Of a stretch of DNA of 64,000 nucleotides, positions 10,344 through 49,705 are shown in pieces. This DNA is from Sphaerodactylus townsendi. Taxonomy: Eukaryota. The notes below the pieces were generated by a model. It had not been told where the DNA came from. It did not search any database and saw nothing but the letters and a program-made list of their open reading frames with translations. The stretch is taken from positions 67,332,001 to 67,396,000 of the forward strand of contig NC_059433.1 in the NCBI RefSeq assembly GCF_021028975.2, read 5' to 3'. The translations under genes were made by a program, and so were the position numbers. Position 1 is the stretch's first letter; every line of letters begins with the position of its first letter.

Positions 10344-11414
10344 ATGGCGGCCATGGTGCTGAATTCTAGTTTGAAAGTTGGTTTCTATCATGATGAAGAC
10401 TCCACACATTATGGATATAACTTTAATATCTCAACAAACTTCCCACAAAAGATCCCAGTACCTTTTATGACAATTGTCACTGTTATCTATATCCTCCTAT
10501 TTCCAGCCTGCATTCTTGGAATTGTGGGGAACGGGACCGTCGTCTGGCTCCTTGGCTTCCGCATGAAGAGGACTCCTTTCACAATCTACATCCTGAACTT
10601 GGCTATTGCTGATATTGGGGTCCTCATACTCAGCATTTTGGAATATATATATGTGATAAATACATTTATCACTGCAGTCCATTATCATGAAGCTATTTCT
10701 CCTCTGAAATATTACATATTTGGTTATGTGTTCTCTTTACTGTATAACACTGATCAGCTTCTCCTGACAGCCATCAGTGTTGACAGATGCGTGGCGGTCC
10801 TCTTCCCAGTTTGGCATCGATGCCACCGGCGACCACACCTGTCCAGAACTGTGTGTGTCTTCATATGGGTCCTCTCCTTCCTGCTTAGTGGATTTGACAC
10901 CCTTCTCATGTTTGCAAATCAATTTAACCTGCTCCATCTTATTTTGAATGTTGTCATTTGCACCCCACTCATGGCAATCTCTGCTATCACTTTGTTGGTC
11001 AAAATCTGCCTTAAATCCCAGCAACGTAAGCGGGGGAAACTGTTAATGACCATTTTCCTTGCGCTTTTCTTCTTTCTCATATTCGGTTTCCCTGTGAATT
11101 ATATGTCTGCCCTCATATACTATTATGTTTTTACTGGCCTTGATGTGGAATCAGTGTTCAATGCGCACCTTGGTTATTCAGAATTAAGTTCCAGAGAGAT
11201 TCCTATTCTTCTCTCTAGGGCAGATCAGATTACAATTGCTATGATGGTTGCTTTTGCATGTACAGTTCTAAACTGCAGTGTTAACCCATTAATCTATTTC
11301 TTAGTGGGAAGAGATAAGAAGAGCAGATCTGGGCTCTCTATGAAAGTTGCCCTCCAGAGGGTATTCAAGGATGAGGAAAACTCCAGAGGGGATGAAACTG
11401 AAACCCAGGTCTGA
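10344..11414 (+). CDS. MAS-related (MRGPR/MAS1-like) class A GPCR, 356 aa, single coding exon
   Basis: 7 hydrophobic segments; GIVGNG, YILNLAIAD, AISVDRC, FPVWHRCHR and NCSVNPLIYFLVG motifs; polypyrimidine acceptor at ~10116. Confidence 0.95.
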   Translation: MAAMVLNSSLKVGFYHDEDSTHYGYNFNISTNFPQKIPVPFMTIVTVIYILLFPACILGIVGNGTVVWLLGFRMKRTPFTIYILNLAIADIGVLILSILEYIYVINTFITAVHYHEAISPLKYYIFGYVFSLLYNTDQLLLTAISVDRCVAVLFPVWHRCHRRPHLSRTVCVFIWVLSFLLSGFDTLLMFANQFNLLHLILNVVICTPLMAISAITLLVKICLKSQQRKRGKLLMTIFLALFFFLIFGFPVNYMSALIYYYVFTGLDVESVFNAHLGYSELSSREIPILLSRADQITIAMMVAFACTVLNCSVNPLIYFLVGRDKKSRSGLSMKVALQRVFKDEENSRGDETETQV

Positions 11415-11429
11415 TTTGTGTATGAGGAC

Positions 11430-11733
11430 ACACACAGACACACACACACACACGCACGCACGCGTGCGCACACACAAACACACAGACAGAATTCATGCCA
11501 GATCTTAGAAGCTAATGAGGCTGTGGTTAATATTGAAGACCCTCATGAAGTCCTGTGTCACTGAACAGAGGCTGGCAATGGCTAGCCACCTCTGAACATC
11601 TTTTTTTTAGCACCTTGGCTCACTATGCATGAGGTATCTGCAGTGCGATGGGGGTGAATGTCTGTTACACCAAGATTTTTTGTACAGACCTAGTCCCTCA
11701 AGCCCCACTTTCACTTGCGTGCGTGCATGTGTG

Positions 11734-11780
<47 letters not shown>

Positions 11781-12010
11781 CAGAGCATGTTTGTGTCAGA
11801 TCATGGAAGCTAATGAGGCTGTGGTTAATATTGAAGAACCTCATGAAGTCCTGTGTCACTAAACTGAGGCCTGCTGTGGCTAGCCACCTCTGAACATCTC
11901 TTACCTTGGATTATGCACAAGATGTCTGCAGTGCAATGGGGCCAAATGTCTGTTACAGCAAGGTTTTTTATACAGATGTAATCCTTCAAGCCTCACTTTA
12001 ACTTTCCATT
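11430..12010 (+). repeat. ~300 bp tandem duplication in the GPCR 3' region, bounded by (CA)n tracts
   Basis: GAAGCTAATGAGGCTGTGGTTAATATTGAAG... occurs at ~11508 and ~11807; single copy in the paralog. Confidence 0.8.
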
Positions 12011-13149
12011 CTCTCCACAGCAAGCAAGACCACTGGTAGCATGATTACAATTTTCTTTGCCACCAGAGAGGGAAAGATTTGCCCGTGAGCACAGCTTTGC
12101 CCCAGATCCCTTCCCTCCGCCTGCAGCCAGATTGCTGAGCCTCACCACTCCCACTGCCACGTGCTGCTCTGCATGCCTTCCTCCTCGCCCCCCTCCCTGT
12201 TGCCGACTTTTTTCCGCTACTTGTCCTGATGGATAGTTTTTGTTACCTGTGACCTTACCTGTATATCTTGAGATCTTTCATTTTTAATTTCTCATATTGA
12301 TATATCAATATCTTGATGTAAAAATAACATTAGTCAATCCCTCCAAACACCTGGTGTGCTCGTGCATTGTCCTTCATTATCTCTATTCCTTCTCACTGCT
12401 CAACAGACTAGTATGGCTCCAGCCCTCCTAGTTCTACACACAAGCAATCAGTGATTTGGGACCACACCGGGAAAAGGCCATCCATCTTGATGCTTGGAGT
12501 TTACAGCACAACAGGAGGGGGATGAACGGGAGCTTGGGGAGCTTAGAAAAAAGTGGTTCACATTGTCCTTTTGTGGTTTGTGCACTGCCATTATTTCCCC
12601 ATCACTCCCCCACTCCCAAGAAGGCAGTCAGTGACCGGGCAAAATATGCAGATGCCATATTCAAGACTTTTCTGGATTAGTTCTCCTTGTTGTATCAATA
12701 TTTTGATATTTCATTATGAGAACCTAAAAATTAAACTACATTAGAAATTAAAGCATGTCTGCCTGTTCAAAACCTGCAAAAACAAGCACAGACCGCAGAG
12801 ATCACCCTCCCCTAGACACACCCAGAAAGACAGCCAATGAGCAACTCCTGCTCCACTAGAGAACAGGCAGTGGGCAATAATGCTGAACATGCCCTGAAAC
12901 AAGTACTCCGGGCCAATTCTCTTTGGGATCATGGGAAGCTCGCCATGTATAATCACCCCTTGAAAACCTTATAGGGTCACCTTAGTTCAGCTGTGACTTG
13001 ACAGCACTCTACACCTAAACAAACCTTAAGGTGTGGAACAATATGGTATAGGCAGGTCTTTTCAGAATCATGGATGTTAAGTAGGATTTTCAAAGGAAAC
13101 TGTGGTTTGCAAACCTCTTACCTCTGCATCATGACTTTCCTATTCCTTG

Positions 13150-13233
13150 GAGGTTTCCTACTAACCAGTGGTAACCCTGCTTAGCTTCTGAGATCTGATG
13201 AGGTCAGGCTAACCTGGGGCTATCCAGGTCAGG
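13150..13233 (-). mobile_element. 5S rRNA-derived SINE head remnant
   Basis: Minus strand CTCATCAGATCTCAGAAGCTAAGCAGGG...CTGGTTAGTA resembles the 5S internal control region, but is short and degraded. Confidence 0.55.
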
Positions 13234-13322
13234 GAGATATATTGCCATATAAAATCCTGCCTATTTCATGTTCTGCATGTTTTTGGCCCATATGCACATA
13301 TGTCCTTCTGTGTTGTTTGCCA

Positions 13323-13461
13323 NNNNNNNNNNNNNNNNNNNNNNNNNNNNNNNNNNNNNNNNNNNNNNNNNNNNNNNNNNNNNNNNNNNNNNNNNNNNNN
13401 NNNNNNNNNNNNNNNNNNNNNNNNNNNNNNNNNNNNNNNNNNNNNNNNNNNNNNNNNNNNN
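13323..13461. other. Assembly gap
   Basis: Run of N. Confidence 1.
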
Positions 13462-13669
13462 CAGGACAATGGAGATTTGCTCTGGGATACCTTCAGACAT
13501 GCAGAAAGCACCGGGGGGGGGGAGCAGGCAAATATAGAAGTGCAGGTCATTTTGTTACCCAAATGCTGGGATCCGCCCCTTTTAGAGTGGAGCAGCTAGC
13601 AAGGGCACACTTTGCTATACAAGAGGTGGGTAAACAATATGAGATCTTTTCCACCAGAGTTTACGAAGG

Positions 13670-14155
13670 TGTGTTTCTGCAAGAAATCCACAGGAATCCA
13701 AAAGTTTAACTATTTTATTAGAAAAGATAAAATAATAAATATACCAGCATAGAACTGATCACAGCACACAGTGAATTCACACAGTTCTAGATTTTAGAAA
13801 GAGGTCTTTCTAAAGAGGTCAAGCACACTTTTTATTCCCACTCTCTGCTTGCAGGTCCGTCATTGCGACAAAGTGCCAGATGTGCCTGTCACCAGTAAAT
13901 GTCTGGAATAGGTGCGTTTCTGCAAGAAATCCACAGGAATCCAAAAGTTTAACTATTTTATTAGAAAAGATAAAGTAATAAATATACCAGCATAGAACTG
14001 ATCACAGCACACAGTGAATTCACACAGTTCTAGATTTTAGAAAGAGGTCTTTCTAAAGAGGTCAAGCACACTTTTTATTCCCACTCTCTGCCCACAGGTC
14101 CGTCATTGCGACAAAGTGCCAGATGTGCCTGTCACCAGTAAATGTCTGGAATAGG
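13670..14155 (+). repeat. Near-identical ~243 bp tandem duplication
   Basis: GTTTCTGCAAGAAATCCACAGGAATCC...TCTGGAATAGGT repeated twice. Confidence 0.9.
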
Positions 14156-14271
14156 TCAGAATTTTTTGGGGGAAAGGTGATAATTTTGATAAGTATTAGA
14201 AAAGACAGATGATTAGAAAGTCTGGGAAAGGGGTCGGATCGTAGTTTTTCCTCCTGCTTTGACTGGCTTAC

Positions 14272-14600
14272 AAGGAGCAGCAGTGGTGTAGGAGGTTAAG
14301 TGCTCGTGTATCTAATCTGGAGGAACCGGGTTTGATTCCCGCTCTGCCGTCACTTAAACTGTGGGAGGCTTTTATCTGGGGAATTCAAGATTAGTTCTGT
14401 GCACTCCCCACACATGCTGCCAGCCTCCTGGGAAGTGACCCTTGGGCTAGTCTGGCAGCTTTTCGAGACTTTCTCTCAGCCTCCACCTACCCCCCACCTA
14501 CCTCACAGGGTGTTTGTTGTGAGGGGGGAAGGGCAAGGAGATTGTAAGCCCCTTTGAGTCTCCTGCAGGAGAGAAAGGGGGGATATTAATCCAAACTCTT
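14272..14600 (+). mobile_element. tRNA-derived SINE (Squam3-like)
   Basis: AGGAGCAGCAGTGG...GGTTTGATTCC A/B boxes; AATCCAAACTCTT end. Confidence 0.85.
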
Positions 14601-14619
14601 ATTTTTGTCTTCTATAAGA

Positions 14620-14920
14620 GCCAGTGTGGTGTAGCAGTTAACAAGAATGGACTCTATTCTAGAGAACTGGGTTTGACTCTCCACTCCTGTACATGAGTGA
14701 CAGACTCTTGACTGGTGAACAGGATTTGTTTGTCCACTCCTCCACATGAAGCCTGTTGGGTGACCTTGGATAGTCACAGTTCTCTCAAATCTCTCTCAGC
14801 CCCACCTACCTCACAGGGTGTCTGTTGTGGGGAGAGGAAGGGAAGCAGTTGTAAGCTATTTTGAGGCTTCTTATGGTTGAGAAAAGTGAGGTCTAAATCC
14901 AAATGCTTATTCTGCTTCTT
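14620..14920 (+). mobile_element. Older subfamily tRNA-derived SINE; paralogous copy at 25610-25910
   Basis: Diverged match to the same SINE consensus. Confidence 0.7.
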
Positions 14921-15555
14921 TGTCCAAGCAGAAAATGACAAGTGGTGGCAGGGTTACTCATTTTCTCCACAATATCATCATTTTCTGTTTAAACAGAATT
15001 ATGCTCCCACGCACCCATTAGGCATGCTTTAATAGAGAAAAATTTGTATGTATGAGGGCTCATTTATAAACTGTCTTCCTATCTTATTCAGTTTAAACTG
15101 TGGGTTATGGATGAGGAAATGATTCAGTATGGTCTGTTTTTTTCTCTGTGTTCAAATTTATTGCCAAAGGCTTTGCCTTTTGAAAACAGATTGGCTTGTG
15201 CTGTGTAAACCTATTGCATTTTACAGTTTTGATGTATATCACTTGTTCGTATTCTTGTATGTAACAATGAGGGGAATAAACACGAGAAACAATGCATAAA
15301 GAGAAAGAATGATTGCTTCAGTTGTTACCGGGGTGAAGAGAAGTGAAACTGAAAAGAAGAAAACAGGGTTTAAAGCAGGCTGATGTGCTGGCAAGTAGCC
15401 AAAACAAAGGCCATCTTAATGCTGCCAAAATCAAGCAGGGCCTGGAGAGTTTGGGGAATGACAACTGATCTCTCGGCTGCAGAGAGGAGTTCCCTTGGAG
15501 AAAATGGCTGCTTTGGAGTGTGGACTCTATGACATGATGCCCTGCTGGTCTGCCT

Positions 15556-16099
15556 TGTCAGAACATGTGTGACTGTTTAGATGAGCAAAATCTAAATGAC
15601 ATAGCTGGACGCCTTCCCTTCCTAGAATTGCCGTGTTGCAGATTACGCATTACTGAAAGTGGACAGCTTGTACTGTGTACAAACCTGATAAAGCGTGAGG
15701 GCACCCTGATTGAACAATTACCGCACTTTGTATATAGTTAGCACAGACAGCAGTGTGAGGAGTGCTTGGAAACACCTGTGATCTGGCGAAGCACTATGTT
15801 AGTAGATAGCAGTAAAAAGAACTGCACTGGTGACTGTGTGTGTCTGTCAGTTCTTGTCTACACCAAGCTTTGATACTCACAAAGGGTGGGTCTACTCGAG
15901 TAAATCCGGCTCAACTTCAACAGGTTATGGGCCCAGATTCTGCCTTTTACTCCGTGAGTAACTGTTTGTGTTGCTGTGTGCGCTGTAATACAGTTTCACG
16001 GCTCAAGTCTTTTGCTGGCTTGCCTTTTGAGCGGCTAACAGAACATAATTATGTGACCTGGTGCCTGAAGATGAAGGCTTATCTTCTGCGTGAAGATTG
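15556..16099 (+). mobile_element. Ty1/Copia retrotransposon 5' end: LTR 15556-15922, PBS 15923-15936, gag fragment
   Basis: TG...CA LTR followed directly by GGTTATGGGCCCAG (copia-type half-tRNA-Met PBS); downstream FERLTEHNYVTWCLKMKAYL matches the Copia gag N-terminal pattern; absent from the paralog at ~26580. Confidence 0.85.
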
Positions 16100-16284
16100 C
16101 CTCCTCCAATCCCACCCTCACCAAACACCAACCCAAATCTCCACAAATTTCTGCACCTGGAGCTTACAACCCCACCCTCCAACCTTTTTCAAGGTTTATA
16201 TTCTCTCTGACGCGTTGGACATTTTGTAGGCCCTTTTACTTTGCGTGGTGATGCAGCTGGAGATAATTGAGAATGGAAATAAAA

Positions 16285-17106
16285 ATTTGGGCGTCTTAGT
16301 GGATAGTTCCATGGGAATGTCAACTCATTGCATGGCAGCTGTGAAAAAGGCAAACTCTATGCTGGGGATAATTAGGAAAGGAATTGAGAATAAAACTGCA
16401 AAGATTGTCATGCCCTTATATAAAGCAGTGGTGCGACCGCACTTGGAGTAATGTGTTCATTTCTGGTTGCCACATCTCAAAAAGAATATTGAAGAGATAG
16501 AAAAAAGTGCAGAGAAGGGCAACGAGGATGAGTGAGGGACTGGAGCACCTTCCTTATGAGGAGAGGCTGCAGCGTTTGGGACTCTTTAGTTTGGAGAGGA
16601 GACGTCTGAGGGGGGATATGATTGAAGTCTATAAAATTATGCATGGGGTAGAAAATGTTGACAGAGAAATTTGTTTCTCTTTCTCACAATACTAGAACCA
16701 GGGGGCATACATTGAAAATGCTGGGGGGAAGAATTAGGACTAATAAAAGGAAACACTTCTTCATCCAATGTGTGATTGGTTTTTGGAATATGCTGCCACA
16801 GGAGGTGGTGATGGCCACTAAACCGGATAGCTTTAAAAGGGGCTTGGACAGAGTTTTATGGAGAGAAATTAGCATCTATGGCTACCAATCTTGATCTCCT
16901 CTGATCTGAGATTGCAAAATGCCTTTAACAGTCCAGGGGACTCTGGGAGCAACAGCCGCGATGAAGGCCAGCTTGCTTTCACACATCCCTGCATGTGAGC
17001 ACCCCAAAGAGCACCTGGTGGAGCCACCGCGAGGGAGGCAAGAGAGCTGGACTAGATGGACTCTGGTCTGATCCAGCTGGCTTGTTCTTATGTTCTTATG
17101 TTCTTA
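16285..17106 (+). mobile_element. 5'-truncated CR1 LINE with stops and frameshifts
   Basis: Matches ~5113-5917; (TTCTTATG)n tail. Confidence 0.95.
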
Positions 17107-17629
17107 AAAAGACAGACTATTGCTGAAAAAAATATATTCCCCACCAGATCCAGTCCCACTCTGCCTTTTGGGGACAGAGACCTGACATTGCAAAAGTCTC
17201 CTCCTCCTTCTGTTGAAGACTATCTTGTCATCTAAGATAAGGACATTTTCTCATATGCCATTGCCAAGCTAAGAGTGCAAAGTCTGATACAACTTGAATT
17301 GAGTATGAGTTGAATTGAGTCCACCATTTTCTAACCTTATCCACATTTTTTGTAACTGTTATTGCCCTTTTGACAGTGTAAGCTGATATGAATCCTCACT
17401 TAACACAGGAAAGTAGTTAAAACCACCCAAGGAAGCCAAAGGTCACAACACAGAAACAGGCGATGGCAACGGCCTGTTTCGTTTGTCTCCTGCCTTGAAA
17501 ACCCTGCAGGGTGACCCTACTTGGGCACGGGCAAATAATAGTGGGGTCAGTTGCTCATCCTTATCACTTGCAAGTTTTTTTTTTTTTCTCCTACGAGCCC
17601 CATTTCTAGCACTCCAGAGATCCTTCAGC

Positions 17630-17891
17630 ATGAGCAAAGAGGTTTTCCTCCCTCTGAGAGCTAATCTGATGGCTGATACAAGAACCGCTCCATCGGCCGA
17701 TGTGGGCAAACTGAAGAACAAAAGCAAAAGGCAGTTAGCCTGGAGCTCTTCGCCATCTTGCAGTCTCTTTGACGGGACTGTTGAAATTTGCTCAAACTCT
17801 CCTACAATTTCTTCTTTGCCTCCCGTCCAGCAGAAGACATCGGGCCCCTCATCCACGGTCTCTAAGGACAGCTCTCCACAATTATTCACAG
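17630..17891 (+). other. Putative non-coding upstream exon (copy 2)
   Basis: CACAG|GTGAGT donor; paralogs at 6500-6784 and 29790-30058. Confidence 0.5.
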
Positions 17892-18057
17892 GTGAGTGAA
17901 AACTGACCCCCTGGGGTGAAATCATATCACAACATTTGCTAAGCAGACTGTTGGGGGTGGTGGTTATCAATGTGTTCCCCAGTCATCCACACTCGACCCC
18001 CAGCAAGGTGGGTACTCATTTTACTGATCTCGTAAGCATGGAAGGTAGAGTCAACCA

Positions 18058-18405
18058 AGGAGCAGCAGTGGCATAGGAGGTTAAGAGCTCGTGGCGTAGG
18101 AGCAGTGGCGTAGGAGCTTAAGAGCTCGTGTATCTAATCTGGAGGAACCGGGTTTGATTCCCCGCTCTGCCGCTTGAGCTGGGGAGGCTTATCTGGGGAA
18201 TTCAGATTAGCCTGTACACTCCAACGCATGCCAGCTGGGTGACCTTGGGCTAGTCACAGCTTCTCGGAGCTCTCTCAGCCCCACCCACCTCACAGGGTGT
18301 TTGCTGTGAGGGGGGAAGGGCAAGGAGATTGTTGTGAGGGGGGAAGGGCAAGGAGTCTCCTACAGGAGAGAAAGGGGGGATATAAATCCAAACTCTTCTT
18401 CTGCT
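18058..18405 (+). mobile_element. tRNA-derived SINE (Squam3-like) with duplicated head
   Basis: Consensus match, (CTT)n tail. Confidence 0.85.
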
Positions 18406-19795: not shown

Positions 19796-19877
19796 NNNNN
19801 NNNNNNNNNNNNNNNNNNNNNNNNNNNNNNNNNNNNNNNNNNNNNNNNNNNNNNNNNNNNNNNNNNNNNNNNNNNNN
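19796..19877. other. Assembly gap
   Basis: Run of N. Confidence 1.
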
Positions 19878-21815: not shown

Positions 21816-22892
21816 ATGGCGGACGTGGTTAATTCAAGTCTGAAATTTGGTCTCCACGAAGATGAAAACTCTGAACTTTATGAATATTACTTGAACATCT
21901 CAAGAGACAACCTACTAAAGATGCAAGAACCTTTTATAACAATTGTCACTGTTATCTATATCCTCCTATTTCTAACCTGCATTCTTGGAATTGTGGGGAA
22001 TGGAACCATCATCTGGCTTCTTGCCTTCGGCATGAAGAGGACTCCTTTCACAACGTACATCCTGAACTTGGCTATTGCTGATATTGGGGTCCTCATAGTC
22101 AGCATTTTGACATATATATGCGCAGTATATGAGTTTGTAATTGCAGTCCTTAATCGTGAAGCTGTTTCTCTTCTGAAATATTACATATTTGGTTATGTGC
22201 TCTCATTATTGTATAACACTGATCAGCTTCTCCTGACAGCCATCAGTGTGGACAGGTGCGTGGTGGTCCTCTTCCCAGTTTGGCATCGATGCCACCGGCA
22301 ACCACACCTGTCCAGAACTGTTTGTGTCTTCATATGGGTCCTCTCCTTCCTGCTTAGTGGATTGGACATCCTTCTCATATTTGCAAATCAATTTACACTG
22401 CTCCAGTTTATGGTGAATGTTGTCATTTGCACCCCACTCATGGCTATCTCTGCTATCACTTTGTTGGTCACAATCTGCCTTAAATCCCAGCAACGTAAGC
22501 GGGGAAAACTTTTCATGACTATTTTCCTTGCGCTTTCCTTTTTTCTCATCTTTGGTTTCCCTGTGAATTATATGTCTGTCCTCATATACTATTATGTTTT
22601 GGATGACATTGATGTGAGATCCGTGTTCAGCGCGCTTCTTGGATACTCAGAATTAAGTTCCACGGTGATTCTTATGCTTTCGTCCAGGGCACATCAGATT
22701 ACTATTCCTATACTGGTTGCTTTTGCATGTACAGTTCTAAACTGCAGTGTTAACCCGTTAATCTATTTCTTAGTGGGAAGAGACAAGAAGAGCAGATCTG
22801 GGCTCTCGATGAAAGTTGCCCTCCAGAGGGTATTCAAGGATGAGGAAAACTGCAGAGGGGAAGAAGGACCCCTAGCTGAAACCCAGGTCTGA
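21816..22892 (+). CDS. MAS-related GPCR, 358 aa, close paralog of 10344-11414
   Basis: Same motifs (GIVGNG, LNLAIAD, VDRC, NPLIYFLVG); ATG in the same CCAAACATGG context as copy 1. Confidence 0.95.
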   Translation: MADVVNSSLKFGLHEDENSELYEYYLNISRDNLLKMQEPFITIVTVIYILLFLTCILGIVGNGTIIWLLAFGMKRTPFTTYILNLAIADIGVLIVSILTYICAVYEFVIAVLNREAVSLLKYYIFGYVLSLLYNTDQLLLTAISVDRCVVVLFPVWHRCHRQPHLSRTVCVFIWVLSFLLSGLDILLIFANQFTLLQFMVNVVICTPLMAISAITLLVTICLKSQQRKRGKLFMTIFLALSFFLIFGFPVNYMSVLIYYYVLDDIDVRSVFSALLGYSELSSTVILMLSSRAHQITIPILVAFACTVLNCSVNPLIYFLVGRDKKSRSGLSMKVALQRVFKDEENCRGEEGPLAETQV

Positions 22893-30682: not shown

Positions 30683-30697
30683 TGTTTCAACGGGATA

Positions 30698-33288: not shown

Positions 33289-33726
33289 ATGAGCATGATG
33301 AAAAAATTCAGTTTCGGATTTTGACAACCCAAATTTGATGACCGAGGTGATTCACTAGTCGAGAGTTACGTGGCGAATAACATTATTTTGTGCATCTTCT
33401 CTATTGTTATCTGCATTTTTGGACTCGTGGGAAACGGACTTTTCCTCTGGCTACTCGCCTTCAACATTAAAAGGAATGTTTTCACCACGTACTTCCGGAA
33501 CTTCAGCCTTGCTTCCTTTGGGTTCCTTTCAGTCTTAGTTTTTGTATATGTGTATCTATTTTTAAGCAATATTGATGTACACATTAATACTCAATATGTT
33601 GATGATCTCATTGCTCTGCTTCTCCTAACTACATGGAACAGTAGCCAGTTTATCCTGGCCATTATAAGCATTGACAGGTGTGTGTTTGTTCTTTACCCAA
33701 GCTGGTATCTACGCCATAGGTTTTGT
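33289..33726 (+). pseudogene. MAS-related GPCR pseudogene (TM1-TM3 only), paralog of 43844-44728
   Basis: Acceptor TAGCAG at ~33240-33245; ATG 33289 with in-frame TGA at codon 12; GLVGNG and SIDRC motifs, then replaced by CR1 sequence. Confidence 0.88.
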
Positions 33727-33898
33727 TCTCCTCCATAAATCTGTCCAAACCCTTTTTAAAGCTATCCAGGTGAGTGGCCATCACCACCTCCTGTGGCAGC
33801 ATATTCCAAACACCAATCACACGTTGTGTGAAGAAGTGTTTCCTTTTATTAGTCCTAATTCTTCCCCCCAGCATTTTCAATGAATGCCCCCTGGTTCT
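33727..33898 (-). mobile_element. Internal CR1 fragment disrupting the GPCR pseudogene
   Basis: Reverse complement of ~5522-5695, no tail. Confidence 0.9.
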
Positions 33899-34519
33899 AA
33901 TAAACGCTTGTGCAAAATGAATGCCCCCTGGTTCTAATAAACGCTTGTGCAAAATCTCTCAACCTCTGTCTCTCTCAGGGGTGTCATTTGCTTACACAGG
34001 GAAATTGGAGATAAATAATTGAGTACAATCAACTCTTTAGGAAACAACCTGCAGGCTCTCCATTACTGGGCAGCAAGCAGGAACATTCCCAGGATTACAA
34101 CTGTAGATCTTCTCGCCCTGGCCTTTCAAATGAAGTCTGTATACCCCCTTATCAGGTGTGAAAGGTTGCAGCCCATGAGAAGATGCTGAATAGAGCTAGT
34201 CCTTTTCCAGGCTGGGGTCATAGATGTGATCCCCTGAGCATGTGCCAAAATGCAAGTTCCAAAGGGCTGTTGGTCCTTGGCTCCAAGCTCATGGTTTGCA
34301 ACCAGTGGGAGCATTGTGAAAACACTGAAAGACAGTGCCGTATAGTGGTTGAAATGTTGAACTAGGATGTGGCGGGGGGAGGGCTCATTCCGCCACTCGC
34401 TGCTTGATGGGCCAATCACACACTCACAGCCTAGCCTAACCCACAGGGTTATGGTGAAGGTAAAATATAGGGCAGGAGAATGATGTAAGCTATTTTGAGT
34501 CCCTTTGGGGGATAAGGCA

Positions 34520-38972: not shown

Positions 38973-39863
38973 ATGTGGACCAATTTCAGCTTCACAAATC
39001 AGACCTCTGTGACTCCTGAGACAGACGATTATAACCTAACCTTTGGGGAATACCTGGAGCAAAAGACTATCTCTTTCCTAAGCATTTTTATTGGCATTTT
39101 TGGATTTCTGGGGAACGCCGTCGTCCTCTGGCTTCTTGGTTTCCGCATTAAGAGGAATTCTTTCACCATCTTCATCCTGAACCTGGCCGTGGCTGACATG
39201 GGAGTCCTCATATCTTTGGCAACATTTTTTGCTGTAGAAGATCCCTCTTCGGACCTCATATACGTGGAGCTCATCATATTCACATACAGCACCGGCCAGT
39301 TCCTACTGACAGTGATCAGCATTGACCGGTGCCTGTGTGTCCTCTTCCCAATCTGGCATCGACTTCGCCGACCATCTCAATTGTCCACCTTCGTGTGTGC
39401 CACTATCTGGGTCCTCTCCTTCCTGCTTAGTGGAATTCACTACATACTCTTCCAGACTGGGATCCTGGAAAAGGATCACCCTCTCACGTTCTACCAGTTT
39501 TTTGTGAGCGCCCTGCTTTGCCTCCCACTCATGATCATCTCCACTCTGACCTTGTCCATTAAAGTCTGCTTCAAATCCCAACAGCGGCAGCGAGGAAGGC
39601 TTTTAAGAGCTATCCTCCTGACGCTTCTCTTCTTCCTCCTCTTCGCGTTCCCGCTGAATGCTGCCTACTTTCACTTTGCTTTCTCCAGGGATGCATTTCC
39701 CTCTCCAATGAGATACGGCTTACTGTGTGCTTCCTTAAACAGCAGCATTAACCCACTGATTTATTTTGTGGTTGGGAGAAAGCGGGAGGGTCCGACTGGA
39801 GAAAGCTTGAAGGTCGTACTACGGAGGATATTGGAAGAAGAAGAAGAAGAAGAAGAAGGGTGA
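38973..39863 (+). CDS. MAS-related GPCR (canonical MRGPR-like), 296 aa
   Basis: GFLGNA, ILNLAVAD, ISIDRC, FPIW, FAFP and NSSINPLIYFVVG motifs; N-terminal N-glycosylation sequons; acceptor at ~38920. Confidence 0.95.
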   Translation: MWTNFSFTNQTSVTPETDDYNLTFGEYLEQKTISFLSIFIGIFGFLGNAVVLWLLGFRIKRNSFTIFILNLAVADMGVLISLATFFAVEDPSSDLIYVELIIFTYSTGQFLLTVISIDRCLCVLFPIWHRLRRPSQLSTFVCATIWVLSFLLSGIHYILFQTGILEKDHPLTFYQFFVSALLCLPLMIISTLTLSIKVCFKSQQRQRGRLLRAILLTLLFFLLFAFPLNAAYFHFAFSRDAFPSPMRYGLLCASLNSSINPLIYFVVGRKREGPTGESLKVVLRRILEEEEEEEEG

Positions 39864-41708: not shown

Positions 41709-41845
41709 CAGGGGTCTTCAAACTATGGCCCTCCAGATGTTCATGGACTACAATTCCCATCAGCCCCCGCCAGCATGGCCAAGTGGTAGGGCTCATGGGA
41801 ATTGTAGTCTATGAAATCTGGAGGGCCATAGTTTGAAGACCCCTG
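41709..41845. mobile_element. hAT-type hairpin MITE
   Basis: CAGGGGTCTTCAAACT...AGTTTGAAGACCCCTG. Confidence 0.8.
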
Positions 41846-42626
41846 GATCATAGGATAAGTACAGCCATACCGTTGAGTTTTCGAAAGTTCCTTAGCATTG
41901 GCTTAATATAGACACTGGGGAAAGCATTACTATTCCGTTGAGCATGGCTACAGAATTGAAGACTTTCTGGTAAAACCTGTTCTGTAATTTCGTAGGATTC
42001 TCTAACAGAGGATTATTTAACATAAGATTCTCTAACGTGAGCCTAAAGATTACTTAGCATGATGTGAAATTAAAATGTTGGATTCTCTGGTGTAATGTTA
42101 GAAATAATATCCCATTAGATAATTTATTCTCTAAATATACAATGTGCTAGTAATATGAGGAAGCAAACTGAATAATAATACTGAAGATAGGAAAGAATGA
42201 AGAAACAACAACACTCACTTAAAACAATAACAAATCTAAAAGCAAGCCAAGAGCTTGCTTAAGCAGAAAAGTAATTTGATAGGAAGGTGGAGGAGAAGGA
42301 ATGCTTCATTGCTTCAAAACAGCACAATAGTTTCAAGGCAAAAAACTGAACTATTTTAAATAAATTATTTTGTTGTTATAAACTTTGGCATTTTGGGGAG
42401 AAACTTTTTTTTTGGCTTTTGTGAGAAGACTTAATTCTGTAGTAGACTCATTGGAAGAAATCGAACAGGGTTTGTCCTCTGTCGTCTCGTGACAGGCATG
42501 CATGAAGAGAAAATAAAGCTGAGGCATCTCAAAATTGGGCAGCCCTTTCGGGATGATTGCGGGAGTTGTAGTTTCAGGTATAAAGAGAACTGGATCCTCC
42601 TGCCCCATCCCCCATTCTTTGCTAAG

Positions 42627-42877
42627 TGTAAGGCTGGACACACTCAGACAAAGTTGACTTTAAATAAAGGAACGAACTTTATTGACTTGTGTAGCCCTAA
42701 GATACAGGGTGCTGGAACTGAGGGTTCTTGCCCTCAGTTCCAGTATATATACACATAGGGGTGGGCGGTCCTTCCCAGTGGCGGGAAACTGGGAGGGCTG
42801 GGGAAACAGGAACCTAACCTGAGGAAACAGAAACCTAACATGCAACAGGGGATTGGGGGAGGGTTGCGACCCTGACA
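42627..42877 (-). mobile_element. Short solo LTR
   Basis: TGTA...TGACA ends, 5-bp TSD CTAAG; same family as 8109-8337. Confidence 0.85.
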
Positions 42878-43843
42878 CTAAGGAGATGGGGGCTACCCTT
42901 TTGAGGGTCCATAACTTTGGACCCCCTGAACCAAACTGCACCAAACTTGGGGGGGTCCCATCAGGACAGTCTCCAGATGATATCCTGACATTTTGGTGCC
43001 GATACATCCAAAAATGCACCCCCTGCAGGAACATCCCAGAAATTTGCCCAAGAATCTTTGTCTGCATTGAGTTTTCTGCATTGCTGTCAATGGGGATTGC
43101 AGGTTGGGGGGGCACATTTCTGAAGGCACAGTCTCAAAACTTTCATGGTCTCATCAGGAAACTGCCCTAATGATACCCCCCAGGTTTGGTGCAGTTTGGT
43201 TCAGGGGGGCCAAAGTTATGGACCCTCAAAACTGTAGCCCCCATCTCCTATTAGCTTCCATTGGAAACAATGGGGATGGGGGCACCCCCTCTGGGAGTCC
43301 ATAACTTTGGACTCCCTGAACCAAACCTCATCAAACTTGGGAAATAGCATAGCCTAAAACTGCGCCCCCTGCAGGCCAAAAATGGAAAACCACTAAAAAT
43401 ATCCAAAAACGAACCCTGCATTTTGATGCCCCCAACAAGGTGGTGCCCTGGGCAGCTGCCCACCTTGCCCAATGGGCATTACGCCCCTGGTTTTCTGCCA
43501 TTTATCCTTTAGATGCAATTTATATGCACCTTGCACACAAAGGAAATTGCAATTTCAGGACCATTAAGGGAAGACTTTTAGCAACAGACAACAGAAAATG
43601 GAGTGGAAGTAAAGACTGAGATTAGATTTATCAATTCCATAATTTTCGGAGAAAAAGCCATCTGACTCAAACCCAAAGTTTTATTGATTTTATTTTAAGC
43701 CACTTCACAACATCATATATAGAGAAGGCAATAACTGAGTGAAATGTGATGTGCTTTCCCGCTGCAACTGAAACCAATGTTTTCTGTTTTCTTCTAGCAG
43801 GAGAGTTTATTCAAAAAAAGGGGGAAAGAATCTGAAGCAGAAG

Positions 43844-44728
43844 ATGAGCAAATTCAATTTTGGATTCAATTTTGGATTTGATACTACTAATGAAATTGAT
43901 TCAGAAATTATCAGGCGCCCAGAGGATACAATGGCTTTAAGTGTCCTTTCTACTGTTATCTGCATTTTTGGATGCATGGGAAATGGAATTTTCCTCTGGT
44001 TACTCACTTTCACCATTAAGAGGAATACTTTCACCATCTATCTTTTGAACTTCACCATCAGTTCACTTGGACTCCTTATACACCTGTTTCATGATTATGT
44101 ATATTTAATTATAACCACTGTCAATATGGATATTGTTATACATAGTTCTACTGAAATGATTCTAAACCTTTTCTTCCTTATGCGATCCATTGGTCGCTTG
44201 AACCTGACAGCTATTGGCATCGATAGGTGTGTGTCTGTTCTCTTTCCAAACTGGTATCGATCCCACAAGTCGCCAGATTTCTCCGCCGTAGCATGTTCCT
44301 TAATATGGGTCCTCTTCTTCATCCTCTTAATTAATGAAGCATATTTTACTTTGATGCTTTTCAAGTACTGGTTTTGGGGGACAGTCTTGATTTTCTGTCT
44401 AGTCGTGATAGCCTCCACTCTGACCCTGTTCATCAAAGCCTGCTTTAAATCACAACCGCAACAATGTGGAACGTTAACCACAGTTGCCTTATTGACTCTG
44501 CCCTTATTCCTCCTTCTGGATGTCTTGTTTATCGTCTGTTCCTCCAATCGGATATATGTTTTGTTAGGGGACTGCCTGGTGATCAGCATGAACCCACTGA
44601 TTTACTTCTTGGTTGGGCGATGGAAAGAGAGTCAGCTACAGGAAACCATGAGGGCCATCCTGCAAAGAGTTTTCAAAGAGGAGGAGTCAGTGCCAATCAC
44701 TCCCACCCAGCTACAATCTCTTCCTTAG
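43844..44728 (+). CDS. Divergent MAS-related GPCR, 294 aa
   Basis: GCMGNG, GIDRC, FPNWYR and NPLIYFLVG motifs; acceptor TAGCAG at ~43795-43800; AATAAA at ~45023. Confidence 0.88.
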   Translation: MSKFNFGFNFGFDTTNEIDSEIIRRPEDTMALSVLSTVICIFGCMGNGIFLWLLTFTIKRNTFTIYLLNFTISSLGLLIHLFHDYVYLIITTVNMDIVIHSSTEMILNLFFLMRSIGRLNLTAIGIDRCVSVLFPNWYRSHKSPDFSAVACSLIWVLFFILLINEAYFTLMLFKYWFWGTVLIFCLVVIASTLTLFIKACFKSQPQQCGTLTTVALLTLPLFLLLDVLFIVCSSNRIYVLLGDCLVISMNPLIYFLVGRWKESQLQETMRAILQRVFKEEESVPITPTQLQSLP

Positions 44729-45330
44729 AACATCTCGCTTCTAGCTTGGCCATAGAGTTGCAACGGTCTTGGTTCCTTTAGGGTTTTCATGGGAACAAAT
44801 CGGATAAGCTATGAAGTGGAAGAAAGGGGGTTGCTGATGCAGAGGTCTTGAGAAATTCCTTTGGGCCACACCATTGCTGCACATTTGCAGGGCAAACTTA
44901 AATGGTCAAAGCTGCAGAACGGTTTGACAGATACTCATTACGATATAATCGGCAATCATTGCAATGCTGCCAAATATCTTGCTGAATGGGCATGCCTCGC
45001 TTCATAGAGAATGTTAAGCGCTAATAAACATTTCTGCAAAATCTCTCTCTCATCTTTAAGATTTGTAAAAAAATTACACGATAAACAGTTGCATATGATC
45101 AGTTCGATTTGAGCCCGGAGAGACTAGCAAGATCTTGAGGGTAGAAACTTTATCAAGGGAGTTTTCACCGTTGAAAACTTCTCTCTCAAAAACCTTCCTG
45201 ATCTCTAGGGTGCTCCTGAACGTCTCGCATCTAACTTGGCTGCTCTGCTGCTGACAAGGGTAGCTACTTTTGAATGAGTTAAACATGATGTGTTGTGTGT
45301 CATGCCTGAGCAAAATAATGTACAATGTCC

Positions 45331-45930
45331 TTAGGTGGTGAGAACCACAAAGGATTGCGAAGAGCTCCAAGCGGACCTTGATAGAGCACTTTCCTTATGA
45401 GGAGAGGCTGCAGCGTTTGGGACTCTTTAGTTTGGAGAGGAGACGTCTGAGGGGGGATATGATCGAAGTCTATAAAATTATGCATGGGGTAGAAAATGTT
45501 GACAGAGAGACATTTTTCTCTCTTTCTCACAATACTAGAACCAGGGGGCATTCATTGAAAATGCTGGGGGGAAGAATTAGGACTAATAAAAGGAAACACT
45601 TCTGCATCCTGCAACGTGTGATTGGTGTTTGGAATATGCTGCCACAGGAGGTGGTGATGGCCACTAACCTGGATAGCTTTAAAAAGGGCTTGGACAGATT
45701 TATGGAGGAGAAGTCGATCTATGGCTACCAATCTTGATCCTCCTTGATCTGAGATTGCAAATGCCTCAGCAGACCAGGTGCTCGGGAGCAACAGCAGCAG
45801 AAGGCCATTGCTTTCACATCCTGCACGTGAGCTCCCAAAGGCACCTGGTGGGTCACTGCGAGTAGCAGAGAGCTGGACTAGATGGACTCTGGTCTGATCC
45901 AGCAGGCTAGTTCTTATGTTCTTATGTTCT
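45331..45930 (+). mobile_element. CR1 3' fragment with internal deletion
   Basis: Sequence matching ~4923-4973 joined to sequence matching ~5371 onward; tail present. Confidence 0.9.
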
Positions 45931-46951
45931 TCAATGCTAAGATTTGCCTCTCACAGAATTGCAGAATGTTCCATGTAAGCAATGTGTTTGGAAATGAGAA
46001 GCAGATAAAAAAAATTATCTACAACATGCAGGTGCTATAAGAACTTAGTAGATATATAAAAAGAAGTCTCATATGATATAATACTGGACCACTGATGATT
46101 GACCAGTCGGGACAAGAGCTGTTAAGGCTTGTTAAGACTTGCCTAAGAAATGTTTTCAAAGGCCAGATTTTGGGTCAAGGATAGACCAACCTGACCCAGG
46201 GTATTCTGTCAGATCTTACTCGGAATTAAAATCTCTTACTCTCCTGAGGGACAGTACAAGTTCCATCCTGACCTGGTCGTTCATGTCTTATAACTCTAGA
46301 AAACTAGTAACATGTGTAAATTTGCATCAGAATTGCTAAATACTAGGAAAAAATAAGAAATATAGGATAAATATAGGATAAACAGGATAAATCTTAAGTT
46401 GTGTCATAGTCATTGCCATCTGGATCGGATTATGGAAACTTATTGAGTTGTTTTAAACATTTTCAGATGGTTTTATGATGGTATATATGGTTGAAAGCTG
46501 CCCCAAGCCCAGAAGCGGAGGGGCACTATATTAAATCGAAATTAATTAGTAGCTACATGGTATGACTACGAATGAAAAGTAAACAATAAAGATATCTTAC
46601 TGAATCACCAAAAGTCTCATCTGAACTCTTTTCATAGCAGGGAAATTGATTCCAGTGTAGTCCTCATTCAGTTCGCTTTCCTAAGAAAATAACAGGTCAC
46701 CAACATCACTGCAAAGGAAAAATTAATATGTTCACTATCATTTATCTCGAAAAGATAGAAAATACACACACACACATACACACACACACACGACTTGGTT
46801 ATGCAAAATCTGTAGAGCCTTTCCAGAAAAGCACTCAAAACCGTTACAATTACTAACAGTGTCCAATAAATAAAGAAAAGCAAGGAAGTCCAAACAATTG
46901 ATCATGCAGGGTTCCTTTTTCTCATCTGTTTTTTCGGCACAGGGTGTAGCT

Positions 46952-48002
46952 CAGTGGTGGTGAACCTATGGCATGGGTGCCAGAGGTGGCACTCAGAGCC
47001 CTCTTTGTGGGCACGCACGCCATCGCCCCAGTTTGGGCATTTGGCAGTGGCATAGTGTCAAAGGGGCGAGGGTGTGCAACACACTAGGTGTGTGACCCTG
47101 TGGGTGTTACCATGCTGCCTGGTAACTTTTAATAGCTCCAGACCAACCAGCTCTCAGCAGCGCAGGGGAACAGAAACGGGACCCGACACAGCGAGTATAG
47201 TAAATAATAAAAGGTATTATTGAGATGCTGACCTCCGTGTCAGCACCTCCGCACCATGGCAACTGCGCTGCCTAGCAGCCTTACAGCATCTTAAATACAC
47301 TTTCTCCCGCCGGGAGTCCGGGAGAATACAGGACAGCCTACAACCATTCATTCACAAAATACATGACAACCAATCATACATCTACAAGTACATGGGAACC
47401 AATCAGAGTCCAGCGGGCAGTCCCTTCTTGAATTTCGCGCCAAAGGCAGGGCGAGGCGATGAAGTAGGCGCTGGCGGAAAGAGCACAAAAGAGTCCTTTG
47501 GGTGCTTGGGGGTCAGGAAACGAAACTTAACGATGATGGCCCCCTTATCTGCCTGCCGGTGGGATTAGGCAGATTGAGGCGCTTCTTCCGGGGTCCCTTT
47601 TGTCAACGTCCATCCCAGGTTTTACAAATGAAAGGGACATGCCCAGGTGGAGCAGGGGTGGATTCCTGCCTTGAGCCAAGGAGGTTCCATGCAGACGCCA
47701 ATACAAAAGACAGCTATAATTCCTATTTTCTATCTAATACAGTTTGTTCCTACCTAACTTATACAGAAATAAAACACAGTTCCATCTTTATTTAAAACAA
47801 GACCAGAAATGGAATAAAATCACTTCTGGCTCTGCTATCATGGGGCGTGGCAAGGGCGTTCCAGGGGTGTGACGGGGGTGTTTAGGGGCATTCCAGGGCG
47901 GGCGAGGGGCGTGGGAGGGGCACAGGGCGCACACGTGACCTGGACGCAGTTTTCCCTTGCTCCACCCCTGGCACTCGGTCTCTCAAAGGTTCGCCATCAC
48001 TG
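46952..48002. mobile_element. hAT MITE containing two nested insertions
   Basis: TIRs CAGTGGTGGTGAACCT / AGGTTCGCCATCACTG; perfect 8-bp TSD GTGTAGCT. Confidence 0.88.
47105..47840 (-). mobile_element. Solo LTR (CpG-retaining, likely young)
   Basis: TGTTAC...CTATCA ends with 4-bp TSD TGGG; TATTTAAG on the minus strand; two CCAAT boxes; strand is inferred. Confidence 0.75.
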
Positions 48003-48377
48003 GTGTAGCTGCTGAAGGTCTTTCTTCAACTTGGGCCTGCAAAAAAATAGGTCATTCCTGTTTCACTGAGCTGTGGGCCTTCCTTCTCCCATTCTGCAGA
48101 TCAGGGGGGGGGGGGATTCTTGCAGTTGGCAATCTGCAAACAAGCAAACCAACTGCACATGCTCATGGAGCTCTTGCCCCCAGGTCCTTAGATCCAACAG
48201 AAAAAAATGGCAAGGGTTACAAAAAGGTCAGGGCTAGGCAGCTCAATCCGCAGCCTGAGGCAGCCAGGGACAGCATTGCCACTGCGCCACCCAGTTGCCC
48301 CCAGAGAATTTGGGGGCGTGGGCGTGGGAAGGCCGGGAAAATGAAAAACAGAAATACCCAGCAGCCGGAAAGCCGGA

Positions 48378-48738
48378 GTGCTATGTGGTTTCCGGGCTGT
48401 ATGGCCGTGTTCTAGCAGCATTCTCTCCTGACGTTTCGCCTGCATCTGTGGCTGGCATCTTCAGAGGATCTGATAGTAGGAATGGAAAGCAAGTGGAGTA
48501 TATATCCTGTGAGGTCAAAAGGTGAGGCCCTCTGAAAAGAGTAGCCTGATATGTGAGTCATAAAGAAGTCTGTAGCCTGGGAGTAACGATGAAGATAGCA
48601 AGGTCAATAGGTGAATGCATCTGAATAGAAGTATCCTGGTCTTTGTTTCCTTGGTTGCTATTGTCTATAGTTGCCCTGTGTTTGTGTGGAGCTGATTAGT
48701 CACAGTCTTGATTCTAGAGTTTTTCAACACTGGCAGCA
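48378..48738 (-). mobile_element. Penelope-like element 3' end with intact minimal hammerhead ribozyme (48426-48468)
   Basis: Minus strand: LPVLKNSRIKT ORF tail, then TCCT-CTGAAGA-T-GCC..GGC-GAAAC-GTC-AGGA. Confidence 0.8.
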
Positions 48739-48779
48739 GGAAAGCCCTTCATAAGGTTCAAAGGAGTAATGCCGCCTGA

Positions 48780-49480
48780 CAGCAACCCCGCTGCAAAGTC
48801 CACGTGGAAGTCAGCTGGTTGGCTCCGCCCCCAGGAACAGCCTGGCCCGCCCCGCCCCCCGTGCTGGCGTCTGATTGGATGAAAGCGTCACTCCGTTGCG
48901 GCCCCGACTTCAGGGATTTGCTGCCACAGTCCTGACGGGCAGCTGGATGCCGGCGTGTTTGTTCTTTGCGCCCGCGGGGTGCCCTTTAGGGCGGCGGAGG
49001 GGGCGAAGCAAACCCGACCGTCCCCCAATCCCTAGCTGCCTTAAATCCATTATGGGGCCGGGACTTTGGAGCGTAAGGACTAATGGAAACCCTGGAAAGA
49101 TCACGGTCCTGAAAGCAACAGTTCCCATAAGACTGCGGTCGCGCAATTAACGGGCTCCTCTGGGACTGCGCTCCACTCCTAGCCTACTTTGCAGGGTTGT
49201 TTGCGAGGACAAAAAGAAAACGGGAAACCTCGGGGCTCTTTTTCCCCTTCCTGCAATGCATTTCACCCCGGGATTTGCAAAGGCTCGACCGCGAGCGGCA
49301 AGAGGCTTCCCTGCGCCCGCTGCCCGGGAGAGCACGTGTGAACGCCGCACACGGATCGAGGAACGGGGCGGGGGAGCAAGCGAGCCGGCCGCAGCTTTTC
49401 CCGGGCTGTGAAGCCCGGCAGCCAATGGGAACGCGGGTCGGGCGGGAGAAGGCGGGGGTTCCGCTGCCCCGCCCTCCGGC
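48780..49480 (+). promoter_or_regulatory. TERT CpG-island promoter
   Basis: High CpG density; E-boxes CACGTG at 48801 and 49333; multiple GC boxes; CCAAT at 49422; ATTGG at 48874; no TATA box. Confidence 0.8.
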
Positions 49481-49705
49481 ATGGAGCAGTCTCGGCGGCC
49501 GCGGGCGCTGCTTCGGCTACTACGGAGCTGCTACGCGGAGGTGCTGCCCTTGGAAGCCGCCGTGCGGGGTCTGCAGGCGGGCGGCCCCGGGCCTTGGGAG
49601 CCGCTGGTGGGAGCCTCGGACCCCCCGAACTACCGCGACCTGGTGCACCGCTGCCTGGTGGGGCTGCCAGCCCAGGCGCCCCCTCCTCGCTTTGGTTTGC
49701 AGCAG
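49481..49705 (+). CDS. TERT: Telomerase reverse transcriptase, coding exon 1 (TEN domain)
   Basis: MEQSRRPRALLRLLRSCYAEVLPL...YRDLVHRCLVG...LQQ; donor CAG|GTACGG, phase 0. Confidence 0.92.

What the first reader, a model, noticed from the sequence alone, without database searches (positions are those of the whole stretch)
10344..49705. An expanded MRGPR/MAS-like GPCR cluster lies directly upstream of TERT, where CLPTM1L is expected
Seen: five same-strand MAS-related GPCR loci fill the region 5' of TERT, the last ending ~4.75 kb before the TERT ATG, and I recognise no CLPTM1L exons in 49 kb. Known: in human, the 5' neighbour of TERT is CLPTM1L and MRGPR genes map elsewhere. Inference: a lineage-specific insertion and expansion of a sensory/mast-cell receptor family into the TERT upstream regulatory interval, or a rearrangement breakpoint. 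Either could alter long-range control of telomerase in this lineage.
Basis: partly seen in the sequence, partly recalled or inferred. Interest (0 to 1): 0.7.

Follow-up and report, generated by a model that had tools for sequence, protein, structure and literature searches.

The report
Telomerase gene moved into receptor cluster
In this gecko the telomerase gene TERT sits beside a large cluster of MAS-like receptor genes, while its usual neighbours lie on another chromosome with a decayed piece of TERT still between them, so the gene itself most likely moved by copy-and-loss, which would be a natural test of how much telomerase control depends on its neighbourhood.

Summary
Observation confirmed: five + strand MAS-like loci (four intact, one 5' half cut off by a CR1), the last stop 4,752 bp before the TERT ATG; no CLPTM1L on this chromosome (C9). 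The five belong to a 28-locus array (22 before TERT, 6 after), of a kind found across squamates, with orthologs in other geckos. The ancestral block (two SLC6A19-like genes, CLPTM1L, MRPL36, three IRX-type genes) lies on C14 without a working TERT, but holds a colinear TERT fossil (exons 12-13 plus intron, 65-79% identical, SINE-split) in the ancestral slot and strand. TERT is single-copy. Submitter gene tags keep TERT next to CLPTM1L in lacertid, iguanian, snake and bird records; the Gekko kuhli TERT model is not on the receptor chromosome. Best reading (0.82): DNA-level duplicative transposition of intron-containing TERT into a pre-existing array, then decay of the parent, roughly at the base of sphaerodactylid geckos. 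Independent contigs bridge all but about 2 kb of the upstream junction. Any effect on telomerase regulation is untested; TERT's last exon was not found, but an N stretch lies there.

The parts
10344..11414 (+). MAS-related GPCR gene 1, intact single coding exon, 356 aa
   Evidence: recent paralog of gene 2
21816..22892 (+). MAS-related GPCR gene 2, intact, 358 aa
33298..33732 (+). MAS-related GPCR locus 3, 5' half only (pseudogene), cut off at an inverted CR1 piece (33713-33902)
38973..39863 (+). MAS-related GPCR gene 4, intact, 296 aa; clusters with Euleptes P0276 and Eublepharis P0277
43844..44728 (+). MAS-related GPCR gene 5, open 294-aa frame, divergent (no Pfam hit); with one upstream gene sister to five of the six genes downstream of TERT (SH-aLRT 91)
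45241..45931 (+). CR1 LINE 3' piece between gene 5 and TERT; 45330-45928 is skipped in a contig of run X8 (organism D) that joins both flanks
48500..49900 (.). CpG island over the TERT 5' end, with CACGTG boxes at 48801 and 49333 and GC boxes at 49366, 49440 (promoter role inferred)
49481..49705 (+). TERT exon 1
52810..54613 (+). TERT exon 2 (single copy in G000)
56754..63941 (+). TERT exons 3-9 (56754-56952, 57459-57648, 58376-58552, 60459-60620, 61744-61839, 62845-62930, 63828-63941); exons 10-15 follow outside the window to G000:C9:67406896

Best explanation
TERT lies next to a 28-locus MAS-related receptor array on C9 while a decayed TERT fragment lies in the ancestral slot on C14, most likely because the whole intron-containing gene was copied at the DNA level into an array that already existed and the parent copy then decayed. 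Shown: single working TERT on C9; ancestral block on C14 with a colinear exon 12-13 fossil on the ancestral strand; older age of the array. Inferred: the copy was a duplicative (segmental) transposition, probably by repeat-assisted repair or recombination in a duplication-prone array, not a retrocopy (introns kept; CpG island present at the 5' end); a deletion removed exons 1-11 of the parent (only 7.7 kb now separate the CLPTM1L stop from the fossil) and a SINE split its exon 13; the copy dates roughly to the base of sphaerodactylid geckos, after the split from gekkonids. Predicted consequence: TERT kept its proximal promoter but exchanged every distal neighbour, so its long-range chromatin context is now that of the receptor array.
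For: Fossil at G000:C14:44724288-44726043 (-): tblastn E 4e-6, colinear DNA pieces at 65-79%; exon 12 E 4e-24 and exon 13 in two pieces (E 3e-8, 3e-7) against a best E of 0.002 in a 200-kb control; the 316-bp piece splitting exon 13 is a genome-wide repeat. Order on C14: two + strand SLC6 genes whose tested exons match B0AT1/SLC6A19 best, fossil (-), CLPTM1L (-, 44733711-44771589), MRPL36 at 45.09 Mb, Homeobox_KN genes at 45.21, 46.13, 46.88 Mb; no N in the 200 kb read. TERT single-copy. Submitter tags put TERT within 2-3 numbers of CLPTM1L in 5 of 6 records that have both (Podarcis lilfordi, Liasis, Crotalus horridus, Phrynosoma, Callipepla) and within 12 in the sixth (Phrynocephalus); Python has both on one 459-kb scaffold. 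In Phrynosoma and Phrynocephalus the receptor tags are about 1,400 and 870 numbers from TERT on the same chromosome. Genes on both sides of TERT have separate orthologs in Eublepharis and Euleptes. G. kuhli TERT model on a 70.1-Mb contig, its receptor on a 129.8-Mb one; Heteronotia CLPTM1L on 72.4 Mb, receptors on 138.6 Mb. Fossil-to-C9 distance K2P 0.26-0.30 predicts 0.56 linker identity, like Euleptes (0.57) and above G. kuhli (0.48). Genes 2-5 and TERT exons 1-15 lie in one N-free block; contigs of other samples bridge 44.7-46.7 kb and 48.7-50.0 kb.
Against: 46.7-48.7 kb is not bridged by any listed contig. An N stretch separates TERT exon 15 from the six downstream genes, and the sequence changes abruptly across it, so 'inside the array' rather than 'at the edge of one block' rests on scaffold order and the tree. 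No second gecko genome could be read; Euleptes RefSeq numbers (TERT XP_056710022, receptors XP_056710626 and ...628) suggest one chromosome only, and TERT's number does not fall between the orthologs of an upstream and a downstream gene; RefSeq numbers are not positional (presumed neighbours differ by 200-1,477). The G. kuhli model is a partial 807-aa prediction, so a second gekkonid copy is not excluded. The dating is crude (local alignment favours conserved pieces; rates differ). No breakpoint signature was found, so the molecular route is inferred.
Confidence: 0.82

Rival explanations
1. Same copy-and-loss, but older: TERT was duplicated in a common gecko ancestor while both sites were on one chromosome (as CLPTM1L and the receptors still are in Eublepharis), and lineages lost different copies.
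For: Eublepharis has CLPTM1L and receptors on one 144.7-Mb chromosome; no TERT of 1,057 aa or more from Eublepharis, Heteronotia, Paroedura or Gekko is among the 120 listed of 182 hits; the G. kuhli model ends after exon 4.
Against: Fossil divergence is lower than the gekkonid split implies; partial models are common for TERT.
Confidence: 0.08
2. Assembly misjoin: TERT is relocated, but its attachment to the receptor array is an error through repeats in the 46.7-48.7 kb interval.
For: The interval is repeat-rich and unbridged; the array region has 11 N stretches and two poly-C runs that look like filled gaps.
Against: N-free block from gene 2 to TERT exon 15; the most obvious misjoin site, the CR1 at 45.2-45.9 kb, is bridged by a contig from another organism (X8 record 19); array genes on both sides are related. 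A misjoin cannot explain the 25%-diverged fossil or the N-free, TERT-less slot on C14.
Confidence: 0.05
3. Non-duplicative rearrangement: inversions or translocations with breakpoints on both sides of TERT carried it to the array, and the C14 piece is a small breakpoint duplication.
Against: The flanking genes on C14 keep ancestral order and strand with only TERT missing; the remnant is internal (exons 12-13), not a gene end.
Confidence: 0.04
4. One reading: receptors inserted and expanded upstream of a TERT that stayed in place.
For: Within the window alone the pattern fits.
Against: CLPTM1L, the SLC6 pair, MRPL36 and the IRX-type genes are all on C14; the array is older and lies on both sides.
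Confidence: 0.01

Closest known systems
SLC6A19-SLC6A18-TERT-CLPTM1L locus of mammals (human 5p15.33)
   Same: Order and strands of the block survive on C14, with the TERT fossil in its slot. PMC5169358 (passages) and PMC4962000 (passages) describe the TERT-CLPTM1L linkage as conserved in mammals.
   Different: The working TERT is on another chromosome and has lost both neighbours.
Gene relocation by duplicative transposition with decay of the parent copy (general class; recalled, no call)
   Same: Intron-containing daughter copy, degenerate parent at the syntenic site, landing in a tandem array.
   Different: The moved gene is a single-copy, dosage- and chromatin-sensitive gene; no report of a TERT move in geckos was found in 8 searches.
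Locally duplicated sauropsid MAS-related receptor group ('MRGPR1' and the reptile cluster near MRGPRH in PMC6504862, passages; RefSeq names 'MRGPRH-like', 'proto-oncogene Mas-like')
   Same: Single-exon class A GPCRs in a tandem array, 44-71% identical to squamate proteins of those names.
   Different: Not known to contain TERT; orthology to any one mammalian MRGPR is unresolved.
TERT rearrangements in neuroblastoma and immortalised cells (PMC4962000, passages)
   Same: TERT placed in a new chromatin neighbourhood with its promoter.
   Different: Those are somatic events that activate TERT; this is a germline change kept for a long time, with unknown effect on expression.

Membership tests
MAS/MRGPR receptor family | Class A (7tm_1) GPCR with a single coding exon | tested here: met
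   Uninterrupted ORFs; 7tm_1 above cut-off for genes 1, 2, 4; gene 5 has no Pfam hit but aligns over its length to the others
MAS/MRGPR receptor family | Closest solved relatives are MAS1/MRGPRs, not other chemoattractant receptors | tested here: met
   Gene 4: MAS1, MRGPRD, MRGPRX1, MRGPRE at 1e-43 to 1e-40, C3aR/C5aR at 1e-15 or weaker; only gene 4 was searched
MAS/MRGPR receptor family | DRC/ERC in TM3 and NPxIY in TM7 in place of DRY/NPxxY (family motifs recalled) | tested here: met
   DRC and NPLIY both present in all four intact window genes
Specific mammalian subtype (MAS1, MRGPRH, MRGPRD, MRGPRX) | Supported clade with the mammalian gene | not tested
   No mammalian sequence was available as a session protein; the tree holds squamate rows only. 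Scores to MAS1, MRGPRD and MRGPRX1 are within 3 bits
MAS/MRGPR receptor family | Expression in sensory neurons or mast cells; ligand response | not testable with these tools
   No expression data obtained
Vertebrate TERT | TRBD with motif T and RT motifs with catalytic aspartates in one open frame | tested here: met
   PF12009; FFYITE, KADV, QGSILS, LTDDFL, WCGLL in a stop-free 1,255-aa frame (motif labels recalled)
Vertebrate TERT | Complete C-terminal extension including the last coding exon | tested here: inconclusive
   PF21399 matches exons 12-15; last exon not found on C9, C14 or genome-wide, but an N stretch lies after exon 15
Duplicative DNA transposition (versus retrocopy) | Daughter keeps introns; parent remnant shares intron sequence | tested here: met
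   14 canonical introns; intron 12 and 13 sequence shared with the C14 fossil
Duplicative DNA transposition (versus retrocopy) | Breakpoint signature (flanking repeats, microhomology, target duplication) | tested here: inconclusive
   No low-copy homology marks the 5' edge; the 3' edge falls at an N stretch
Ancestral amniote TERT locus (TERT 5' neighbour CLPTM1L, 3' neighbour SLC6A18) | Working TERT between CLPTM1L and SLC6A18 | tested here: not met

The most novel reading that the evidence does not exclude
Sphaerodactylid geckos carry a telomerase gene that left its ancestral locus, lost its ancestral last exon on the way and now ends in, and is regulated by, sequence of the MAS-like receptor array: the DNA after exon 15 resumes as the 3' flank of a receptor paralog (93% identical), and all three RefSeq models from two sphaerodactylid species lack the C-terminal domain. 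That would be a vertebrate TERT with a replaced C-terminus under the control of a sensory/immune receptor cluster.
Probability: 0.12. Interest if true: 0.82.

Novelty: new variant of a known kind. Interest (0 to 1): 0.56.

Why it matters
TERT transcription is rate-limiting for telomerase and depends on chromatin context: integrated reporters spanning CLPTM1L-TERT-SLC6A18 reproduce silencing that transient promoter reporters do not, and rearrangements near TERT activate it (PMC4962000, passages). The linkage to CLPTM1L is treated as conserved (PMC5169358, passages) and holds in the lizard, snake and bird records checked here. A lineage that swapped all distal neighbours while keeping the proximal CpG island, with close relatives that apparently did not, makes it directly testable which part of TERT control is promoter-intrinsic and which is neighbourhood-dependent, in animals that regenerate tails. 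It also warns that synteny-based TERT annotation fails in these geckos.

Tried and rejected
Second TERT copy: none. C6 CLPTM1-family gene as CLPTM1L: rejected, 36% identity to gecko CLPTM1L against 62-100% per exon on C14. RefSeq accession distance as an adjacency test: too noisy. Search for TERT's last exon: tblastn and a profile of 118 C-termini gave only a weak hit (E 0.017) inside a repeat in intron 12, taken as chance. A match at C9:67407636 to C14 first read as further fossil is a repeat. Logan contigs: no listed piece spans the whole junction; 46.7-48.7 kb has only short pieces; no RNA holder listed. Flanking genes of the array: 150 of 156 filtered ORFs scanned, one collagen VI-like VWA exon downstream at C9 67.52 Mb, nothing upstream. 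The careful tree did not finish; the quick tree was used. Earlier findings: none returned. Literature: no paper on gecko TERT position (listings only; 'gecko' also matches a CRISPR library name); supplements were not opened, and gene tables of gecko genome papers could bear on the timing.
Full report
Observation. The window is G000:C9:67332001-67396000. It holds four complete MAS-like ORFs on the + strand (10344-11414, 21816-22892, 38973-39863, 43844-44728) and one 5' half gene at about 33298-33732 that ends at an inverted CR1 piece. The last stop is 4,752 bp before the TERT ATG at 49481. Gene 4's best solved relatives are MAS1, MRGPRD and MRGPRX1 (E about 1e-43; other receptor families 1e-15 or weaker). 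TERT has 15 detectable exons that join to a stop-free 1,255-aa frame with AG/GT at all 14 introns and the RT motifs. No CLPTM1-family sequence is on C9. A protein 100% identical over exon 2 is named by its source as TERT of the sphaerodactylid gecko Sphaerodactylus townsendi; I treat G000 as a sphaerodactylid gecko on that basis.

The array is larger and surrounds TERT. In 464 kb of C9 there are 28 MAS-like loci between 67.199 and 67.448 Mb: 22 before TERT (15 intact, both strands) and 6 after it (all intact by ORF length). Such receptors are abundant in all squamate groups: 498 hits at E<=1e-40, and the named rows among the 120 listed come from geckos, lacertids, skinks, cordylids, anguimorphs, iguanians and snakes. 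PMC6504862 (passages) already notes a locally duplicated sauropsid MAS-related group. In a quick ML tree of 75 rows (21 intact C9 genes, 3 other G000 loci, 51 of the 120 listed hits; the careful search did not finish; no mammalian rows) window gene 4 groups with Euleptes P0276 and Eublepharis P0277 (SH-aLRT 99), the downstream gene at 67430111 groups with Euleptes, Eublepharis, Heteronotia, Paroedura and Gekko proteins (99), and window gene 5 with one upstream gene is sister to the other five downstream genes (91). So lineages on both sides of TERT are older than the eublepharid split, and neighbours across TERT are related.

The ancestral locus is on C14 and holds a TERT fossil. The C14 CLPTM1-family gene is CLPTM1L (test exon up to 98% identical to proteins so named; whole gene mapped at 44733711-44771589 on the - strand); the C6 gene is only 36% identical. 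Beside it lie two + strand SLC6 genes whose tested exons match B0AT1/SLC6A19 best (SLC6A19 then SLC6A18 is inferred from order), and beyond CLPTM1L come MRPL36 (45.09 Mb) and Homeobox_KN genes at 45.21, 46.13 and 46.88 Mb (IRX4/2/1 by position, recalled). The 200 kb read has no N. Between the SLC6 pair and CLPTM1L, on the - strand as ancestral TERT would be, 44724288-44726043 matches C9 TERT from intron 11 through exon 12, exon 13 and intron 13 in colinear pieces of 65-79% identity. Of 15 exons tested, exons 12 and 13 hit C14 (E 4e-24; 3e-8 and 3e-7); a 200-kb control gives a best E of 0.002. The fossil exon 12 has lost a codon and its GT donor, and exon 13 is split by a 316-bp interspersed repeat. 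TERT has no other copy in G000.

Other species. No other eukaryote genome could be read, so I used record metadata. Submitter tags, assumed to run in gene order, place TERT and CLPTM1L within 2-3 numbers in 5 of 6 records with both (Podarcis lilfordi CAI5780259-62, Liasis KAM6454330/332, Crotalus Chor_003184/182, Phrynosoma JD844_016960/958, Callipepla ASZ78_003730/732) and 12 apart in Phrynocephalus; Python has both on one 458,884-bp scaffold. In Phrynosoma and Phrynocephalus the receptor tags are about 1,400 and 870 numbers away on the same chromosome. Among geckos, Eublepharis has CLPTM1L and receptors on one 144.7-Mb chromosome; Heteronotia has them on 72.4 and 138.6 Mb; the partial G. kuhli TERT model is on a 70.1-Mb contig and its receptor on 129.8 Mb, which fits TERT staying with CLPTM1L in gekkonids (homology of the 70- and 72-Mb chromosomes is inferred from size). 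Euleptes TERT and receptor RefSeq numbers are 604 apart; presumed neighbours differ by 200-1,477 and genes on different chromosomes by about 10,900, so this hints at one chromosome and no more; that TERT's number is not between the orthologs of an upstream and a downstream gene is mildly against, but uninformative given that noise.

Timing. The fossil and C9 TERT differ by K2P 0.26-0.30. Neutral change of 0.29 would leave 0.56 identity in the exon-2 linker; observed values are 0.57 to Euleptes, 0.48 to G. kuhli and 0.30-0.33 to four non-geckos. The copy therefore dates roughly to the Euleptes split and after the gekkonid split; this is crude.

Misjoin test. Genes 2-5 and TERT exons 1-15 lie in one N-free block. 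Contigs of other samples and organisms cover gene 5 into the CR1 (X4, 43460-45329), 46061-46711 and 48708-49983, and one X8 contig (organism D, another study) joins 44708-45329 to 45929-46105, skipping most of the CR1. About 2 kb of repeats (46.7-48.7 kb) remains unbridged in the listed pieces. On the 3' side an 88-base N stretch lies 1.6 kb after exon 15; a CR1 piece ends at it and the 3' flank of a receptor paralog (93% identical to that of the gene at 67437572) begins after it. Whether that N is a gap or withheld sequence cannot be told, so neither the absence of TERT's last exon nor the exact 3' junction can be called.

Mechanism. Shown: one working intron-containing TERT on C9, a decayed intron-containing remnant in the ancestral slot, an older array. 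Inferred: DNA-level duplication of TERT with its CpG island (48.5-49.9 kb, with E-box and GC-box motifs) into the array, probably by repeat-assisted repair or recombination; then deletion of most of the parent and repeat insertion. Predicted, untested: the proximal promoter still drives TERT while distal control now comes from the receptor array.

Comparison and novelty. Gene relocation with a fossil parent is a known class (recalled), and the receptor array is a known sauropsid expansion. The TERT-CLPTM1L linkage is described as conserved in mammals and TERT as chromatin-dependent (PMC5169358 and PMC4962000, passages only). Eight searches found no paper on TERT's position in geckos (listings only, supplements not seen). 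The arrangement is present in public annotation of this species but appears unremarked.

Noticed in passing
G000:C9:67406897-67418700 (L047-L048): TERT's last coding exon was not found here, on C14 or genome-wide; read-through of intron 15 would stop after four residues; an N stretch in the interval prevents a call.
   Followed up: partly
P0001, P0559, P0002: All three RefSeq TERT models from two sphaerodactylid species skip exon 12 and end out of frame in exon 14, although exon 12 is intact with canonical splice sites in G000. Unexplained for Euleptes.
   Followed up: partly
No TERT of 1,057 aa or more from Eublepharis, Heteronotia, Paroedura or Gekko among the 120 listed hits; the one gekkonid model found (G. 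kuhli) is 807 aa. Gecko TERT models may be generally partial.
   Followed up: partly
G000:C14:44725806-44725928 versus C9:67401358-67401484: At four exon-12 positions the fossil keeps the residue usual in other squamates while the working C9 copy has changed it, a hint of faster change after the move.
   Followed up: no
G000:C9:67278495-67281518 and 67559233-67574232: Poly-C runs with a 16-base period (about 3 kb and exactly 15,000 bases) that look like filled gaps or storage artefacts.
   Followed up: no
window 3507-5917: Young CR1 LINE with an open 737-aa ORF2 piece (RVT_1) and TTCTTATG tail repeats; many related 3' pieces across the window.
   Followed up: no
G000:C1:94.87-94.91 Mb; C9:68.08-68.11 Mb; C767: Further, more divergent MAS-like loci outside the array; the C1 genes branch apart from the C9 array and may include MAS1.
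   Followed up: partly
L058:5215-5883 (C9 67.52 Mb): Collagen VI-like VWA exon is the first recognised gene downstream of the array.
   Followed up: partly
CLPTM1L and the receptor array share a chromosome in Eublepharis and non-gecko squamates but not in Heteronotia or G000, implying a separate chromosome-scale split in part of the gecko tree.
   Followed up: no
P0274: The public annotation fuses the broken locus 3 to gene 4 in one 384-aa model, probably a prediction artefact.
   Followed up: no
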